Source: Promethearchaeota archaeon (lineage in GTDB: Archaea; Asgardarchaeota; Lokiarchaeia; Sigyniarchaeales; SOKP01). Taken from it: a stretch of DNA of 64,000 nucleotides. The stretch's first letter is position 1. Each line of letters opens with the position of its first letter. Below the pieces are notes generated by a model that did not search any database, had not been told where the DNA came from, and saw only the letters and a program-made list of their open reading frames with translations. This document shows, piece by piece, positions 7,992 through 63,647 of the stretch. The DNA lies in assembly GCA_048940445.1 (NCBI GenBank), contig JBHLON010000002.1:64001-128000 (forward strand). The letters are read 5' to 3'. Both the position numbers and the translations under genes were made by a program.

Positions 7992-9853
<1,862 letters not shown>

Positions 9854-39385: not shown

Positions 39386-41383
39386 CTAATCCTCGTCCCA
39401 ATCGACGTCCACAACTTTCTTTTTCTTATCTTCTTCTTCTTTTTTATATGTAGCGCCGCCTTCTCCAGTACCAGCTTCTCCTCCTGGTGGAGCTCCACCC
39501 ATACCTCCAGGTGGAACACCCCCCATACCACTTGCGGCTTTCTGTGCTTGCTCAGCTGCTTGTTGATATACTTGGTCTTGAGCTTGGGAAGCATAAATTC
39601 TTTGAGAAAAGCTATACATAGACTTTTGGAGATTTTCGATTCCTAATTTAATTCTACTTACATCATCTGTTTTGATGTCTTCCTCTAATGATTTAATAGC
39701 AGCTTCAATTTCCTTTTTCTCTTTTTCTTGGATTTTATCTTTATTATCATCCATTAACTTTCGTGTTTGATAGATCATCGAATCTGCGTTATTCTTTGCT
39801 TCAATTAGTTCACGTACTTTTTTATCGGCTTCCTCAAATTTTTCTGCATCTCTGACTTTCTGTTGAATTTCTTCTTCACTTAAACCTTTTGCTCCGGTCA
39901 CTGTAATACCTGTTTCTTTCCCTGTACCTAAATCTTTTGCTGTTACATGAACGATCCCATCAGCGTCAATTGAAAACTTTACCTCAATCTGAGGAATTCC
40001 TCGAGGCGCTGGAGGAATACCAGTTAAATGAAACATTCCTAATGAAATGTTATCCTTTGCCATTGCTCGTTCTCCTTGTAGTACATTAATAGTAACAGCA
40101 GGCTGATTATCTGCAGCAGTGCTAAAGATTTGATGTTTTTCTGTAGGAATGGTTGAATTCCTCTCTATCAATTTAGTAAATACTCCACCTAAAGTCTCTA
40201 CACCTAATGATAATGGAGTAACATCTAAAAGAAGAAGGTCTTCAACATCTCCTGCTATAATTCCACCTTGAATTGCAGCACCAATGGCTACACATTCCAT
40301 TGGGTCGACAGAATGCTCTGGTTCTTGCTTAAAGAATTTTTTAAAGCGTTCTTGAACAGATGGCATTCTTGTAGGACCTCCAACTAAAATAACCTTATCC
40401 ACATCATTAGCAGAAACTTTCGCATCTGATACTGCTCTTTGCATTATAGGATCTAACCTTTTTAATGTGGGTTCGATAAGTTGTTCTAATTTCGCTCGTG
40501 TTAATTCCATCTCCAAATGAACAGGATTTCCTCCTTTCTGTGTAATGTAAGGTAAATTTATTTGGGTTGATAATGTTGTAGATAACTCGATTTTTGCTTT
40601 TTCGGCAGCATCTTTAATTCTAATCATTGCTTTATTGTCCCCTTTTAGATCAATACTTTCCTTTTTTCTAAATTCTTCCTCGACCCAATCAATTATTGCG
40701 TTATCCATGTCTGTTCCTCCTAATTGAGTATCCCCGGCTGTCGAAAGAACCTCCACCACACCTTCACCATACTCCATGAGTGTTATATCGAAGGTTCCAC
40801 CACCCAAATCGAGTACACATATTTTAAGCAACTTATTTTTTGTATCCTTATCTAATCCGTAAGCTAGACAAGCTGCAGTAGGTTCATTAATCATACGTAC
40901 TACTTCTAAACCTGCAATCTCACCAGCATTCTTTGTTGCTGTCCTTTGAGCATCATTAAAATATGCTGGTACAGTAATAACTGCCTTTTTAACCTCCTCA
41001 CCTAAATATGCTGATGCGTCATTCTTGATCTTAGTGAGGATCATGGCACTAATTTCTTCGGGTGAAAACTCTTTCCACTCTTTTCCTACTTTCACCTTTG
41101 CCTTATATGAGAGCCCCATTTTACGTTTAATAGCCGTTATAGTACCATCTGGGTTGCTTACAGCTTGACGACGCGCTGGTTCTCCTACTATCTTTCGACC
41201 ATTTTCATCAAAAGCAACATAGGATGGAAATGCTTTACCTCCTAACGTACGACCTTCAGCAGCTGGAATAATTTCAGGTTTTCCAGTACCACCTAAAACA
41301 GCACATGCACTATTACTAGTGCCGAGATCTATACCGATGATCTTCTCCTTTTTCTTGGCTTTTTGAGCTTTTTCCTCACTCAT
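39386..41383 (-). CDS. dnaK: Chaperone DnaK (Hsp70)
   Basis: [34 protein letters not shown]. Confidence 0.98.
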
Positions 41384-41582
41384 GATAAAAGTTCACTTTC
41401 TAATTATTAATGTTTATAATTTATTTGCAAATAATTATTTTATTCTACATTATTTCTTATTAAGAATATAATTAATGGTAAAATTTTAATTTTTTTTATA
41501 ATGATCTATAAATCATATTTCTAAAAAAGTTTCATTTATATTGATCAAATTAAAACGTTTTGATACATGAAGGTTCATATTT

Positions 41583-42425
41583 ATGGTAGATAAAAAGAAA
41601 ATGGAGAGTAAGAAAGAGCAACCATCTCAATCTAATAACGAAGCTAAAGAAAAAGGTTCTGAGACTGAAGAATCAAATATTGTTGAGAAAAAAGATACTA
41701 AATTGATTGAAGGTGAAGAACCACGAAAATTAGAATACTTTTCTAAAGAGGAATTAGTAGAGAAACTTAACATGTTAGAGAAGGATATTAAAGAAAAAGA
41801 AAAATCTCTCTCTCAATTTCAAGCACAAGCAAAAGATTGGAAGGACAAGTATATGAGACTTCAAGCTGAATTTGAGAATGCTCATAAAAGATGGGAAAAA
41901 AATCGTCAGAACCTACATCTTCAATATACAGCATCGACGTTAAAGAGTTTCTTACCATTATATGATTCTTATAAGAAAGCACTCGAGGGGAATAATCCTC
42001 ATAAAGATATATTGAAAGGTTTTTATGATCAGTTTATGAATATTTTAAAATTTTATAAAGCTGAACCGATAAAAGTTAACATTGGCGATCCTTTCGATTA
42101 TAATTATCATGAAGCTGTAAGCACTATTGAAAAGAATGACGTTCCAAGTAATACAATTATAGACATTATTCAAGATGGATGGAAATTAGATAAAGAAGTT
42201 ATTCGATATGCTAAAGTGGTAATAGCCCGTGAACCTAAGCCTCCAGAACCAGAGCCAGAGCCAGAACCAGAGTTAGCACCGGAACAAGAAACAAAACAAG
42301 AACTAGAACAGGAACGAGAACTAAAACCTGAGGAAAAAAAAGAAGAAGGACAATCAGCTGAAAAAACAAGAGACAAAGAGAAAGATTCTGATTTTGGAGA
42401 AAACACACCGAAAGAAAACCATTAA
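41583..42425 (+). CDS. grpE: Nucleotide exchange factor GrpE with acidic/PE-repeat tail
   Basis: RLQAEFEN, FDYNYHEA, QDGW.L...VIRYAKVVIA. Confidence 0.92.
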   Translation: MVDKKKMESKKEQPSQSNNEAKEKGSETEESNIVEKKDTKLIEGEEPRKLEYFSKEELVEKLNMLEKDIKEKEKSLSQFQAQAKDWKDKYMRLQAEFENAHKRWEKNRQNLHLQYTASTLKSFLPLYDSYKKALEGNNPHKDILKGFYDQFMNILKFYKAEPIKVNIGDPFDYNYHEAVSTIEKNDVPSNTIIDIIQDGWKLDKEVIRYAKVVIAREPKPPEPEPEPEPELAPEQETKQELEQERELKPEEKKEEGQSAEKTRDKEKDSDFGENTPKENH

Positions 42426-42594
42426 AACCGTTCTTTTTTGGATCAAATTTATTTAATCATAATTATATTTTTTAAAATATAAAGAATTTCCTTGTTTTTT
42501 TACCAATTTTAATTATTCTTTATAGACTTCTTATTGCATATAATAAAAATCTATTTTTACTCATTTATACTCTTTCAGAATGTAAGGTGAAAAT

Positions 42595-43458
42595 ATGAAT
42601 AAAATTAGAAAGGTTAAATTAACTTTAAAAAGTCGTCCTACGATAGAAGGAGCTGGAGTAAGATTAAAGAGAGCGTTTGGATATGCTGATTCTTCATTAG
42701 ATCCATTTTTACTTTTAGATGATTTTCATTCGGATGATCCTAATGATTATATAGCAGGATTTCCGTGGCATCCACATCGTGGAATAGAAACCATAACGTA
42801 TATGCTTCATGGAAAAATTGAACATGGTGATAGTTTAGGCAATGGAGGAGTCATTGAAGAAGGAGATGTTCAGTGGATGACTGCTGGCTCTGGGATCATA
42901 CATCAAGAAATGCCAAAGCGAGATAACAGTAAGCCTCTTTTATGGGGGTTTCAACTTTGGGCTAACTTACCTGCGGCGCATAAGATGAGAGACCCTCGTT
43001 ATAGAGATATTAAAAAAAATCAAATTCCAGAAGTTAAAGCAGGGAACGGTGTAAAAGTTAAAATAATATGTGGAGAGATCAATGGAATAAAAGGACCCGT
43101 ACAGGACATCGTAACAGAACCAGAATACTTAGATGTACAAGTAGAAGCTCATTCTGAATTTAAACACTCAACTAAAAAGGAAAATAATGTAATTGCTTAT
43201 GTAATACAAGGTGAAGCTTATTTTGATGAAAGTAATGATAAACTGGTCGGAGCTGAAGGTTTAGTATTATATCAAGAGGGAGACGAAATCTTGATTAGAA
43301 CTGTAAATAACGGTGTTCGATTCCTCTTGATTTCTGGAAAACCATTGAGGGAACCGGTGGCTTGGCGAGGTCCTATTGTAATGAACACAGATGAAGAGTT
43401 AAAAATTGCATTTCGAGAATTTGAAAATGGAACATTTATTAAGCACCACACAAAATAA
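42595..43458 (+). CDS. Pirin family protein
   Basis: DPFLLLD, HPHRGIET, WMTAGSGIIHQE, EPVAWRGPIVMNT. Confidence 0.95.
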   Translation: MNKIRKVKLTLKSRPTIEGAGVRLKRAFGYADSSLDPFLLLDDFHSDDPNDYIAGFPWHPHRGIETITYMLHGKIEHGDSLGNGGVIEEGDVQWMTAGSGIIHQEMPKRDNSKPLLWGFQLWANLPAAHKMRDPRYRDIKKNQIPEVKAGNGVKVKIICGEINGIKGPVQDIVTEPEYLDVQVEAHSEFKHSTKKENNVIAYVIQGEAYFDESNDKLVGAEGLVLYQEGDEILIRTVNNGVRFLLISGKPLREPVAWRGPIVMNTDEELKIAFREFENGTFIKHHTK

Positions 43459-44511: not shown

Positions 44512-44691
44512 ATGTCTACTTGTAATTATTGCGGAAAAGAAATCGGTGACTTGCCTTTTAAATGTAAGAATTGCGGAAATCTATTTTGTTCCAAACATAG
44601 ATTACTTGAAAATCATGAATGTAAATTTGATTTTGAAGGTTCTATATTTAATGAAAATCAAAAACTAAAAGCTAAAAAACAAAGCAATTAA
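44512..44691 (+). CDS. AN1-type zinc finger microprotein (59 aa, absent from ORF track)
   Basis: CNYC...LPFKCKNCGNLFCSKHRLLENHEC. Confidence 0.85.
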   Translation: MSTCNYCGKEIGDLPFKCKNCGNLFCSKHRLLENHECKFDFEGSIFNENQKLKAKKQSN

Positions 44692-45513: not shown

Positions 45514-45792
45514 ATGTCTGAAGAGCCTCAGTTCCCTGATATACCGGACTTTAAAGAACGTTCCGTTCTTTAACTGGACATTGGGGAAATAGATAGAAAA
45601 GATAGGTTCATTCAAAAGAAGACAACAGTTATTAAATGTAGAGAGTGCAAGGCAAGGATGGAACGCCCTTTCAAAGCAGGAGACTATACCTTTAAAACCC
45701 TAACTGATGAAGAATGTGAGAAATGTCGCAGTAAAATGTCAACTATAGAAGAGATCTATGCTGAATGGGTAGATCCTAAAAAGATCAAATAA
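45514..45792 (+). CDS. Small Zn-ribbon protein; two exons (45514-45549 and 45580-45792), 82 aa after splicing
   Basis: MSEEPQFPDIPD|IGEIDRKDRFIQKKTTVIKCRECKARMERPFKAGDYTFKTLTDEECEKCRSKMSTIEEIYAEWVDPKKIK. Confidence 0.8.
45550..45579 (+). other. 30-nt BHB mRNA intron
   Basis: TTTAAAGAACGTTCCGTTCTTTAACTGGAC; helix CCGG/CUGG, bulges AC|U and AC|A, perfect 10-bp intron stem, exon stem UUCCCUGA/UUGGGGAA; in-frame TAA. Confidence 0.85.
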
Positions 45793-60238: not shown

Positions 60239-61075
60239 ATGAGTAAAACTAAAAGGTTAACTACAAAAATCCTACTTACTGATTTAAAATTTCCAGAAGG
60301 ACCAAGATGGCACGATGGCAAACTTTGGTTCTCTGATATGGAAGATTGCAAAGTAATAATTGTTGATATGAAAGGAAATAAACAAATAGCATTTGACGTG
60401 CCAAATAAACCATCTGGTTTAGGATGGTTGCCTGATGGAAGACTATTGGTGGCCTCTATGAAAGATCGTAAACTTTTCCGACAAAATTTAAAAGGACTAG
60501 AAGAAGTAGCTGATTTGAGCAAGTTAGCAACTTTTGATTTGAATGACATGGTCGTAGATAAGCAAGGACGTGCTTATATTGGAAATTTTGGTTTTGATTA
60601 TCTTAACCACCAACCTTATGTACCTGCTAATATTGTCATGGTATCTCCTGATGAAACTGTTAAGGTAGTGGCAGAAGATATGGCCTTCCCAAATGGCATG
60701 ATTATCACCCCTGATGATAAGACTCTTATTGTAGCAGAAACTTTTTCAGCTAGACTAACAGCTTTTAATATCAGAAATGATGGAACTCTTAAGAATAGGC
60801 AAATATGGGCAAATCTGAAATCTATTCCACCTGATGGAATTTGTCTTGATGAAGAAGGAGGAATTTGGGTTGCTGCTCCAGGACGGCATAGGACTGTAAG
60901 AGTTCTCGAAGGTGGAGAAATAACACATGTTGTAAAGGTGCAGAATGATGCTTATGCCTGTATGTTAGGTGGACCAGATCTTACAACATTATTTATAGCA
61001 ACTGCAGCTTATACCAGAGATAAAGGGCAGATTGAATATGTAGAAGTCAACGTACCAAAAGCTGGGCTTCCGTAA
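60239..61075 (+). CDS. SMP-30/gluconolactonase/LRE family protein, copy 2
   Basis: Close tandem paralog of 59188-60030. Confidence 0.9.
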   Translation: MSKTKRLTTKILLTDLKFPEGPRWHDGKLWFSDMEDCKVIIVDMKGNKQIAFDVPNKPSGLGWLPDGRLLVASMKDRKLFRQNLKGLEEVADLSKLATFDLNDMVVDKQGRAYIGNFGFDYLNHQPYVPANIVMVSPDETVKVVAEDMAFPNGMIITPDDKTLIVAETFSARLTAFNIRNDGTLKNRQIWANLKSIPPDGICLDEEGGIWVAAPGRHRTVRVLEGGEITHVVKVQNDAYACMLGGPDLTTLFIATAAYTRDKGQIEYVEVNVPKAGLP

Positions 61076-61226
61076 CTATTTCCAAAAGTGACTAATCATT
61101 TTAGATGGTTAAAAAATATGTAGATTGACATTTTTATCAAAATGTCTCTTTATCGCATAAATATAAAAACATAATTCAACATCTACTTATAAACTACTTA
61201 ATTTATTTAAAAAAGTGTTAAGGGAT

Positions 61227-63647
61227 ATGAAATCAAAAAATAACAAGTTAGAATCATTAACATTTATTCTTTTTTTCATGATCTCGATGGCTTCTATGAC
61301 TAATTTTATCTTCAATGTTAAAGCTAATTCATACATTCCAGAAGAAAATGAATATAATGGCTGGTACTAGGCAATCAAAGAGGGAGACCAAATTTATTTT
61401 GAAACAGAGTTTATTGTGACTAATTATACCACATCCGAAGTAGAATTAATGTTTAAAGATATATGGATTTATAATATTACGGCTATTGGGAATGTTACTA
61501 TCGATTGGTTAGGAATAAACTCATTTTCTCAGGTAAATGCAACACAATGCTATTATAATACCACATCAGGCGAGCTAGTAGCATATGATGCTCCATCAGA
61601 GTTTGCTCTATTTGGGTATAATAGTTCTGATCCAATAACATATCGATATCGCGCAGGAAATATGGGTATACCTTTAGTATTGCCTCTGAATAGTTCAAGT
61701 GTAGAGGTTGATATTTTGGACGATATTATAAATGAAACTATGTATTATCCAGCCTCTGAAATGGGCGTTTTTAATCAATTCGATTATTATGAATCTGATC
61801 CCGTTCAAAATAGGATTTCATTCTCTAATTCTACAGATGGCTATTTTTCAGAAGCATACTACTATGATAATGGGACTTTGAGAAGTGGAACCGCCTTTTT
61901 AATGGTTCAAATAGGCAGCGGTCCGATGTTAATAAATGCAAATTTTAGAAGAGTATTTGATTACAACATAACAGATCAAGTAGAATGGGGCGTTGATGTT
62001 GGTGATACTCTCTATTACGATTGGTATGAGGGTTATGATTGGGGCGGAGATGCGGATGATTATAGGATGAATATTGTGGATATTTCTGAAGAAATGCTTG
62101 AAAAATCTAAAAATACTTTTAGTGATAACCTAGTTTACATGACATACCAAGTAGTATATGCAGACATATATGCTTGGAATGGAGTCAGTTATGAACTTGT
62201 GGAATCTAATTATGAAATTGGATTTGCTAATAATTTCTATCCATTATATTTTGATGAATTAAACTTTGAGGCTGGATTTTACGCATTTCTTTATCCTAAT
62301 AATTTTGCCATGGAAGACTATGAATTTACGTTAAATAATCATACTCTAAATATATTTCAATTTGTTGTGGATGAGATCTCCTTTTCACAAAATACATTTT
62401 TTGAAACCCTTATTAGAAATTCTACAAGTAATGACTTCATAAAAATCACTTTTGATAAATCGACGGGAATAATTCAATCGAACTTAATGATCTTTGATGA
62501 TTATATATCGTTTATTGAAGTAAAACAACAAAGTCTAGTAGATTGGTCTGTTAATGTAGGGGATGTTTTATATTATAAACAAAATGGTGATTATGTAGCT
62601 GAACAGAGAATAAATATAACTGGTAGTTACACTTTATTCGTGAATATGAGTGAATATTATGACCAATTGAGTTCAATGGGAATCTCATTGACCTTTCCCT
62701 CTTCTCAACCGGAATTGCAATTCTTTTCGTATATTGAGGCTGATTTTGAAGAGTGGGATCCAATTGCAGAATCGTGGCATTATACTGGGAATGATCCTTT
62801 TGCTATTGCAAATATATATTGGCCAATTTCTCCAATTCAGTTCGAATTTGGTCCTCCCTTATTGATGCCTGAAAATACTGATAGCTCCGAACTTATGGAA
62901 CTCTTTAGCGTATATGGTACTGTTTATGATGATATTACCTACGGTCACGGATATGTTATCCTTAAAAATTCTACTTTAGATAGATCATTGAATTATTACT
63001 TTGATGAGGCTTCAGGAAGAGTTACTATGATGTATGGATGGATGACCTCACCAATTCCAGGAGAAGACTGGTCTTATATGTCAATTTATCCGATGTTTCA
63101 TAGAGCTTGTCCAGTTGGTTCTAATTCATTTCAACCACAATCTGATTTCCCAATGAGCATATCAGTTGATATAGAATTTAATGTGAATGTATCTGGTTAT
63201 GGTGTTGAATATATCTACTCCATGTTTCCTTATAACCCTACTAATGATTCTTTACCTCAAGGAACTGCTTTAGCTTATTTTGATCAATTACTTATTAATT
63301 ATACTTACATTGATGGCAATATTTCCATGACAATTACTCTTCCGTCTTCTATAGATCTCAATTCAGCAACGTTATATATTTTTGCGTGGAATATGAGTGG
63401 CACTGAAGATTGGGATACTCCCCCACCAGAATTCTATGATACTATTGTCTATGATTACATTGCGAATAGATTTACCATTCAAATTCCTCCTTGGGGAGCG
63501 TGGCCACTAATCTCCGCTATTTCATATAGTGGCGGTGAAGGAGGAGAACTACCTGGAGAAATACCTGGATACAATCCTATTTTCCTTCTCATTGGAATAA
63601 TAGGCATATCAACGATTTTCATGATAAAAAAAAAGAGAACTAAATAA
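61227..63647 (+). CDS. Secreted surface glycoprotein with Loki-CTERM-like anchor; in-frame TAG at 61368-61370 (nonsense, error or read-through)
   Basis: Signal peptide from ATG 61227 in frame with the 61416 ORF; three W-x-V-x-x-GD-x-L-YY repeats; many N-x-S/T; IPGY-TM-KKKR end. Confidence 0.75.

What the first reader, a model, noticed from the sequence alone, without database searches (positions are those of the whole stretch)
45514..45792. Hidden Zn-ribbon gene revealed only after removing a 30-nt BHB intron
Seen: ATG 45514 reads MSEEPQFPDIPD-FKERSVL-stop-LD-IGEIDRK...CREC...RPFKAGDY.F...CEKC...IEEIY. The insert 45550-45579 has a perfect 10-bp stem (TTAAAGAACG/CGTTCTTTAA), central helix CCGG/CUGG, 3-nt bulges ACU and ACA, and an 8-bp exon-exon stem (UUCCCUGA/UUGGGGAA) offset by 4 nt. 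The junction is also a near-duplication (CCGGAC...CTGGAC) of a palindromic CCGG site. Inference: a hairpin inserted with a 6-bp duplication at a palindrome creates a BHB automatically, which is a possible intron-birth mechanism. The gene is invisible to standard ORF callers.
Basis: partly seen in the sequence, partly recalled or inferred. Interest (0 to 1): 0.88.

Follow-up and report, generated by a model that had tools for sequence, protein, structure and literature searches.

The report
tRNA-type mini-intron in Asgard zinc-ribbon gene
A small, conserved zinc-binding protein gene of a Loki-type Asgard archaeon is broken by a 30-base hairpin shaped like a tRNA intron, so its messenger RNA very probably has to be cut and rejoined by the tRNA-splicing enzymes, as do those of at least nine other genes in this genome, a kind of splicing I found published for the coding part of only one archaeal gene (cbf5).

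Summary
Observation confirmed. Removing 45550-45579 gives an 82-aa CxxC…CxxC protein. About 100 family orthologues are contiguous across the junction. Two other genomes carry different inserts at the same junction (30 nt with a stop; 31 nt, frameshifting). All three keep the 4-bp central helix, and 6 of 10 intron-stem pairs change on both sides. Exons are under purifying selection (dN/dS about 0.06). The genome encodes two EndA subunits (one with a crenarchaeal-type specificity loop) and RtcB. Comparison with relatives found 11 such inserts in this genome, in about 1,900 partly overlapping gene pairs (uL11 twice, MetRS, DnaG, Sm, PurA, UvrA and others). uL11 has four intron positions across the family. 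So this is very probably one of many EndA/RtcB-spliced mRNA introns (about 0.9). No RNA evidence could be obtained. The proposed birth by duplication at a palindrome is not supported: the other carriers read CCAG/CTGG, and at 16 sites the intron end is the reverse complement of the exon, not a copy (2 of 16 palindromic). The scan noted this system earlier in other Asgard genomes. I found no paper on it.

The parts
45514..45549 (+). exon 1 (12 codons, Pro-rich N-terminus)
   Evidence: identical protein to the intronless sister G017, with 6 synonymous and 0 non-synonymous differences
45550..45579 (+). 30-nt BHB intron with in-frame TAA at 45571-45573
   Evidence: absent in about 100 orthologues; different 30- and 31-nt inserts at the same junction in G036 and G149
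45580..45792 (+). exon 2 (70 codons plus stop); CxxC at 45637-45648 and 45715-45726
   Evidence: four Cys invariant in 25 homologues; three-strand model, pLDDT 69
45544..45547 (+). 5' strand of the central helix (CCGG, exon), followed by bulge ACU; predicted cut between 45549 and 45550
45574..45577 (+). 3' strand of the central helix (CTGG, intron), followed by bulge ACA; predicted cut between 45579 and 45580
   Evidence: invariant in all three carriers, helix 100% paired
45551..45573 (+). intron hairpin (9-10 bp stem, 3-5 nt loop)
   Evidence: 6 of 10 pairs changed on both sides among three carriers
45532..45539 (+). 5' arm of the exon-exon stem, pairs with 45581-45588; 5-bp core conserved in carriers
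   Evidence: Gly codon GGG in 3 of 3 carriers against 3 of 47 non-carriers
9775..9804 (-). second mRNA intron in the same window, in purA (30 nt, helix GGGG/CCCT), shared with G017
   Evidence: excision restores the G-D-E-G-K-G-K motif in the single purA copy

Best explanation
The gene is transcribed as a pre-mRNA. The last exon-1 bases and the intron end form a 4-bp helix flanked by two 3-nt bulges, held by the intron hairpin and a short exon-exon stem. The two-subunit tRNA splicing endonuclease EndA cuts after the second base of each bulge and RtcB joins the exons, giving an mRNA for an 82-aa zinc-ribbon protein of an uncharacterised archaeal family. Shown here: the insert, its exact boundaries, contiguity in orthologues, covariation of the structure, purifying selection on both exons, and the presence of the enzymes. 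Inferred: transcription, cleavage by this EndA, ligation and zinc binding. The intron is one of probably a few dozen of the same build in this genome. It is most likely a tolerated passenger that persists only where a BHB can form; no regulatory role is shown. History at this site: the G000 and G149 introns look homologous (22/30 identical) while their closest relatives lack the intron precisely, which needs several exact losses or lateral exchange; the G036 intron (14/30) is a separate gain or an old diverged copy.
For: Contiguous orthologues in about 100 of 105 family genomes with the gene. Same-site inserts of 30 nt with a stop and 31 nt with a frameshift in two other genomes. Covariation: 7 pairs changed on both sides, 2/500 shuffles, and slid controls fall to 24-56% paired from 86% (only 3 sequences). 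dN/dS 0.057 against G017 and 0.029 for G149 against G018, like intronless pairs. The predicted cut sites give exactly the orthologue sequence. EndA alpha and beta; the alpha subunit aligns over the loop and Lys44 of its best solved relatives 3ajv/3p1z (from memory these are Aeropyrum pernix), the loop tied to relaxed-motif cleavage in PMC6379350. RtcB. A motif-free census found frame-breaking 21-38 nt inserts that all offer a 4-bp helix at an alignment-compatible register (metG 3 of 4 in its best overall register); chance is 0.09-0.25 each. uL11 has four intron positions with covarying helices in 21 genomes examined.
Against: The exon-side helix is relaxed. A de novo genome scan for BHB plus frame repair was not enriched over control geometries, so the census rests on homology with two reference genomes only. 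The gene tree is from 252 columns, and the AU test did not reject one clade of carriers (p 0.08).
Confidence: 0.9

Rival explanations
1. Dead gene: a hairpin insertion made a pseudogene and the BHB is chance.
For: The protein is small and of unknown function, and 30 of 135 family genomes gave no match (many incomplete).
Against: dN/dS 0.06 and no amino-acid change in exon 1. A homologous, diverged intron in G149 implies the insert is old. The same kind of break sits in single-copy metG, uL11 and purA.
Confidence: 0.03
2. No splicing: readthrough, ribosomal bypass of the hairpin, or restart at ATG 45658 gives the protein.
For: The insert here is in frame (30 nt), a downstream ATG exists, and G036 has an in-frame ATG inside its intron.
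Against: The G149 insert is 31 nt and uL11 inserts are 28-38 nt, in all three frames. A restart at 45658 loses two invariant Cys. Bypass would not explain an exon-intron 4-bp helix with A-led 3-nt bulges (first bulge base A at 13/16 and 15/16 sites).
Confidence: 0.04
3. Assembly or sequencing artefact.
For: The genome is a 139-contig draft; no second assembly holding this exact insert was found.
Against: Independent genomes carry related but different inserts at the same base, and the purA and uL11 introns are shared with G017.
Confidence: 0.01
4. Birth mechanism A: a hairpin inserted with a 6-bp duplication at palindromic CCGG made the BHB at once.
For: 5 of 6 junction bases repeat here. The two bases before each cut co-vary with the exon (AC/AC in G000 and G149, AT/AT in G036). 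A path CCGG/CCGG to CCGG/CTGG to CCAG/CTGG is possible. A few other sites are palindromic or nearly so.
Against: It needs more changes than one A-to-G. 2 of 16 sites are palindromic, and 6 of 16 have no direct identity in the helix yet pair fully, e.g. GGGG/CCCT, ATGG/CCAT, GCAT/ATGC.
Confidence: 0.1
5. Birth mechanism B (my preferred, inferred): excised hairpin introns are re-ligated into other mRNAs by EndA/RtcB running backwards where their last bases can pair with the target, then fixed in DNA by cDNA or RNA-templated recombination; the same route from spliced mRNA gives exact loss.
For: Intron ends are complementary to the upstream exon. Unrelated sites share a size (mostly 28-38 nt) and build (11 of 16 sites fold a 5-nt loop, 10 of these with U fourth; no null run). 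Four positions lie within 17 codons of uL11. Loss is exact and patchy.
Against: No donor found: the intron has no match over 14 nt in its own genome. A fold-back template switch during replication would also give reverse complements. For Asgard tRNA introns no general arrival route was found (bioRxiv 10.64898/2026.10.13.758758).
Confidence: 0.4

Closest known systems
cbf5 pre-mRNA intron of Desulfurococcales and Sulfolobales (Yokobori 2009, PMC2738675)
   Same: Short (16-44 nt there) intron in a coding region, often a relaxed BHB, cut between bulge bases 2 and 3 by a hetero-oligomeric EndA, with gains and precise losses on the tree.
   Different: cbf5 is one gene and one site, and its splicing was shown by cDNA. 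Here it is another gene and phylum, many genes per genome, up to three introns per gene, a common 30-nt hairpin build, and no RNA proof yet.
HVO_1309 5'-UTR BHB intron of Haloferax volcanii (Schwarz 2020, PMC7714728)
   Same: An mRNA substrate of EndA.
   Different: Lies in the untranslated leader and does not break the reading frame. That paper names cbf5 as the only other known case.
Non-canonical tRNA introns of Asgard archaea (bioRxiv 10.64898/2026.10.13.758758)
   Same: BHB at the boundaries, repeated gains, two-subunit EndA, arrival route unknown.
   Different: tRNA only; the word mRNA does not occur in its main text.
Uncharacterised archaeal zinc-ribbon family (CxxC, R-x-F, G-D-Y-x-F-K, CxxC)
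   Same: Host protein; relatives of 56-150 aa, some with N-terminal hydrophobic segments; nearest Atlas clusters are unnamed Promethearchaeota and Nitrososphaerota proteins.
   Different: No Pfam or NCBIfam family passes its cut-off and no significant fold match was found.

Membership tests
Archaeal BHB (EndA-type) intron | 4-bp central helix between exon end and intron end | tested here: met
   CCGG/CUGG; CCAG/CUGG in two relatives; 100% paired
Archaeal BHB (EndA-type) intron | Two 3-nt bulges; cuts after the second base restore the mature sequence | tested here: met
   Excision at these points gives the orthologue sequence in all three carriers, including the 31-nt one
Archaeal BHB (EndA-type) intron | Intron-side flanking helix | tested here: met
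   9-10 bp, 6 pairs changed on both sides
Strict canonical hBHBh' motif | Exon-side helix stacked directly on the 3' bulge | tested here: not met
   1 bp, then an internal loop before the 8-bp stem; a relaxed motif, as in most cbf5 introns
Archaeal BHB (EndA-type) intron | Broad-specificity EndA and RtcB encoded | tested here: met
Archaeal BHB (EndA-type) intron | Removal from the RNA in vivo or by EndA in vitro | not testable with these tools
Group I, group II or spliceosomal intron | Ribozyme core or GU-AG ends | tested here: not met
   30 nt, ends U…AC, no Rfam match at the locus
Insertion with target-site duplication at a palindrome | Direct repeat of target bases at both junctions | tested here: inconclusive
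   5/6 here and 4/6 in the other carriers; not the rule at 16 sites
Zinc ribbon protein | Two CxxC knuckles on a beta ribbon | tested here: met
   Invariant C32, C35, C58, C61; strands 23-32, 38-42, 66-76 in a moderate-confidence model; zinc binding itself untested

The most novel reading that the evidence does not exclude
This Loki-type family carries a population of mobile, roughly 30-nt hairpin mRNA introns that use the tRNA-splicing machinery, spread by reverse splicing into conserved core genes, and are gained more than once at the same base (G036 against G000/G149) and lost precisely. This would be an ongoing intron invasion of protein-coding genes in the closest prokaryotic relatives of eukaryotes, without a spliceosome.
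Probability: 0.35. Interest if true: 0.93.

Novelty: new variant of a known kind. Interest (0 to 1): 0.8.

Why it matters
Archaeal mRNA splicing is documented for one coding region (cbf5). If these inserts are spliced, an Asgard family routinely splices mRNAs of core genes (uL11, MetRS, DnaG, EF-1alpha, EF-2, Sm). Many Asgard gene annotations would then be truncated or missing, EndA/RtcB would be general mRNA-processing enzymes there, and intron gain and precise loss could be studied in closely related prokaryotes. This locus is a clean test substrate: one site, three intron versions, many intronless sisters. It does not show any descent of spliceosomal introns from these introns.

Tried and rejected
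A first de novo scan timed out. The C version showed no excess of BHB geometry over mirror or other bulge sizes, and the two-genome filter was dominated by intergenic noise because G017 is too close; neither is used as support except for the purA and own-site rows. In one search the two longin rows and the metG query were taken on the wrong strand; one search corrects them. No donor for the intron in its own genome. ARAGORN gave no reliable tRNA intron set to compare. Foldseek gave only weak USP finger-type hits (E 0.05 or worse), not used. The PNAS 2011 paper on archaeal introns was not held, so I could not check whether it lists further mRNA candidates. In the single-contig genomes G044, G050 and G055 of a neighbouring family, uL11, metG, dnaG and EF-2 looked uninterrupted; four genes cannot show absence.

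Full report
Observation. The window lies on contig C134 of a 3.64-Mb, 93% complete draft genome. Its relatives' records are mostly titled Promethearchaeota. The sequence is as described: 12 codons from ATG 45514, a 30-nt insert with an in-frame TAA, then 70 codons with two CxxC motifs. Excision gives 82 aa. The RNA folds into the stated structure at -22.8 kcal/mol with z of -3.05 to -4.68. A 4-bp helix with a 10-bp stem in this register occurs at 5e-6 of random coding sites. An ORF caller sees only a 44-aa fragment.

Orthologues. The gene was found in 105 of 135 family genomes, and nearly all matches run from residue 1 or 2 to the end without an insert. In 51 sequences aligned at DNA level only three have an insert: this genome, G149 (31 nt, shifts the frame) and G036 (30 nt, in-frame TAG). 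All three lie at the same junction, after the Asp-12 codon. A pattern search of the genus found the same three plus one unrelated match. The central helix is CCAG/CUGG in the other two. On the three-way alignment, 86% of cells pair, 7 pairs change on both sides (6 in the intron stem, 1 in the exon stem), and sliding the partners drops pairing to 24-56%. With three sequences this is suggestive rather than a formal test. All three carriers use GGG for Gly-14, which completes the exon-exon stem; 3 of 47 non-carriers do. Both exons evolve under purifying selection: dN/dS is 0.057 against the intronless sister G017, with six synonymous and no non-synonymous differences in exon 1, and 0.029 for G149 against G018.

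History at the site. The gene tree places this genome with intronless G017 (99/89) and G019 (99/98); starred branches force three changes, though the AU test on 252 columns does not reject one clade of carriers (p 0.08). The G000 and G149 introns are 22/30 identical and include one A-U to G-C change; G036 is 14/30 and 12/30 identical to them, mostly in the fixed 3' end. The simplest readings are one gain before G000/G149 with several exact losses (or lateral exchange) plus a separate gain in G036, or one old gain with many losses.

Machinery. Two EndA paralogues are encoded. The 201-aa one is closest to 3p1z and 3ajv (E 3e-38 and 7.5e-37) and aligns across their specificity loop, keeping the lysine at position 44 (that these entries are Aeropyrum pernix is from memory). 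PMC6379350 ties this loop and lysine to cleavage of relaxed motifs. RtcB is at C94:60701-62002.

It is not alone. Earlier notes on this genome listed other candidates, so I ran a motif-free census by spliced alignment of relatives' proteins. Against close G017 (1,081 pairs) two clean 30-31 nt frame-breaking inserts appeared, this one and a uvrA-like gene; the reverse comparison gave one in G017's EF-1alpha. Against G104 of another genus (844 pairs) there were nine clean ones of 21-38 nt: this gene, uL11 twice, a longin-domain gene twice, metG, dnaG, an Sm protein and a low-molecular-weight phosphatase; G104 had two of its own, one in EF-2. One further 34-nt event with weak flanks and no helix was set aside, as were longer events from mismatched paralogues. 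Each clean insert offers a fully paired 4-bp helix at a compatible register, with chance 0.09-0.25 each; for metG the better overall register pairs 3 of 4 with a 9-bp stem and restores the HIGH-type motif. purA in this window has a 30-nt intron shared with G017. That makes 11 in this genome; about 1% of compared genes, so a few dozen in all (extrapolation). uL11 looks interrupted in roughly half of 86 family genomes. In 21 examined, introns of 28-38 nt sit at codons 17, 24, 28 and 33, up to three per gene, with covarying helices such as TGGG/CCCA and AGGG/CCCT. A de novo scan without homology was not enriched over controls, so the count rests on homology.

Mechanism. Shown: insert, boundaries, structure, covariation, selection, enzymes. 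Inferred from established EndA chemistry (PMC2738675, PMC6379350): cleavage after the second base of each bulge and ligation by RtcB. I put this at 0.9; no RNA data could be read. The host protein is most likely a zinc ribbon of an unnamed archaeal family with soluble and membrane-anchored members. It usually lies just downstream of grpE and a pirin-like gene (named from sequence, not tested) and directly follows grpE in L038, so a role with the DnaK chaperone system is a weak guess (about 0.25).

Birth mechanism. The duplication-at-a-palindrome idea fits this one junction (5 of 6 bases repeat) but not the set. At 16 sites the two helix strands pair at 3.9 of 4 positions and are identical at 1.4 of 4; only 2 are palindromes. 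At this site the other carriers have CCAG, so CCGG is most simply a synonymous change tolerated as G-U. I prefer re-insertion of excised hairpins at sites where their 3' end can pair (0.4), given the shared size and build (11 of 16 sites fold a 5-nt loop, 10 with U fourth; no null run). A fold-back template switch remains open, and no donor was found.

Known work and verdict. cbf5 is the published coding-region case (PMC2738675); PMC7714728 adds a 5'-UTR intron and calls cbf5 the only other one. A 2026 preprint covers Asgard tRNA introns only. Searches of the held library found no paper on Asgard mRNA introns; subscription journals are mostly not held. Earlier reports of this scan describe the same system in other Asgard genomes; these are unchecked notes and not evidence. 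Verdict: real feature, new variant of a known kind, interest 0.8.

Noticed in passing
window 9775-9804 (-): 30-nt BHB intron with stops in purA, just before the E-G-K-G-K motif; also present in G017.
   Followed up: yes
G000 C61:46028-46138; L204-L223: uL11 carries two introns here and has four intron positions across the family, up to three in one gene (G035).
   Followed up: yes
G000 C94:59657-59846: The longin-domain gene with two introns lies on the same strand just upstream of rtcB (60701-62002), the ligase that would splice it.
   Followed up: partly
L070 about 12656 (minus-strand count; G017) and L192:2056 (G104): BHB introns with stops in EF-1alpha (33 nt) and EF-2 (30 nt) of relatives, absent in this genome.
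   Followed up: partly
16 intron sites: Most intron hairpins fold a 5-nt loop with U at the fourth position, often closed by C-G; possible shared origin or recognition element.
   Followed up: partly
window 44512-44691: AN1-type zinc finger ORF of 59 aa; the G017 counterpart is 273 aa with a membrane part that does not align here, so this copy looks truncated.
   Followed up: partly
L018 (G036 C55 about 5190): An in-frame ATG inside the G036 intron gives a 77-aa ORF that annotation would take for the gene.
   Followed up: no
L126 (G074 C41:57973-58221): A second, tandem copy of the zinc-ribbon gene with an internal TAA.
   Followed up: no
G000 C81:1378-1521 (-): Distant paralogue; family members of 145-167 aa carry N-terminal hydrophobic segments before the same zinc ribbon.
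   Followed up: no
window 39386-43458: dnaK divergent from grpE and a pirin-like gene; the zinc-ribbon gene usually follows this cluster in relatives.
   Followed up: partly
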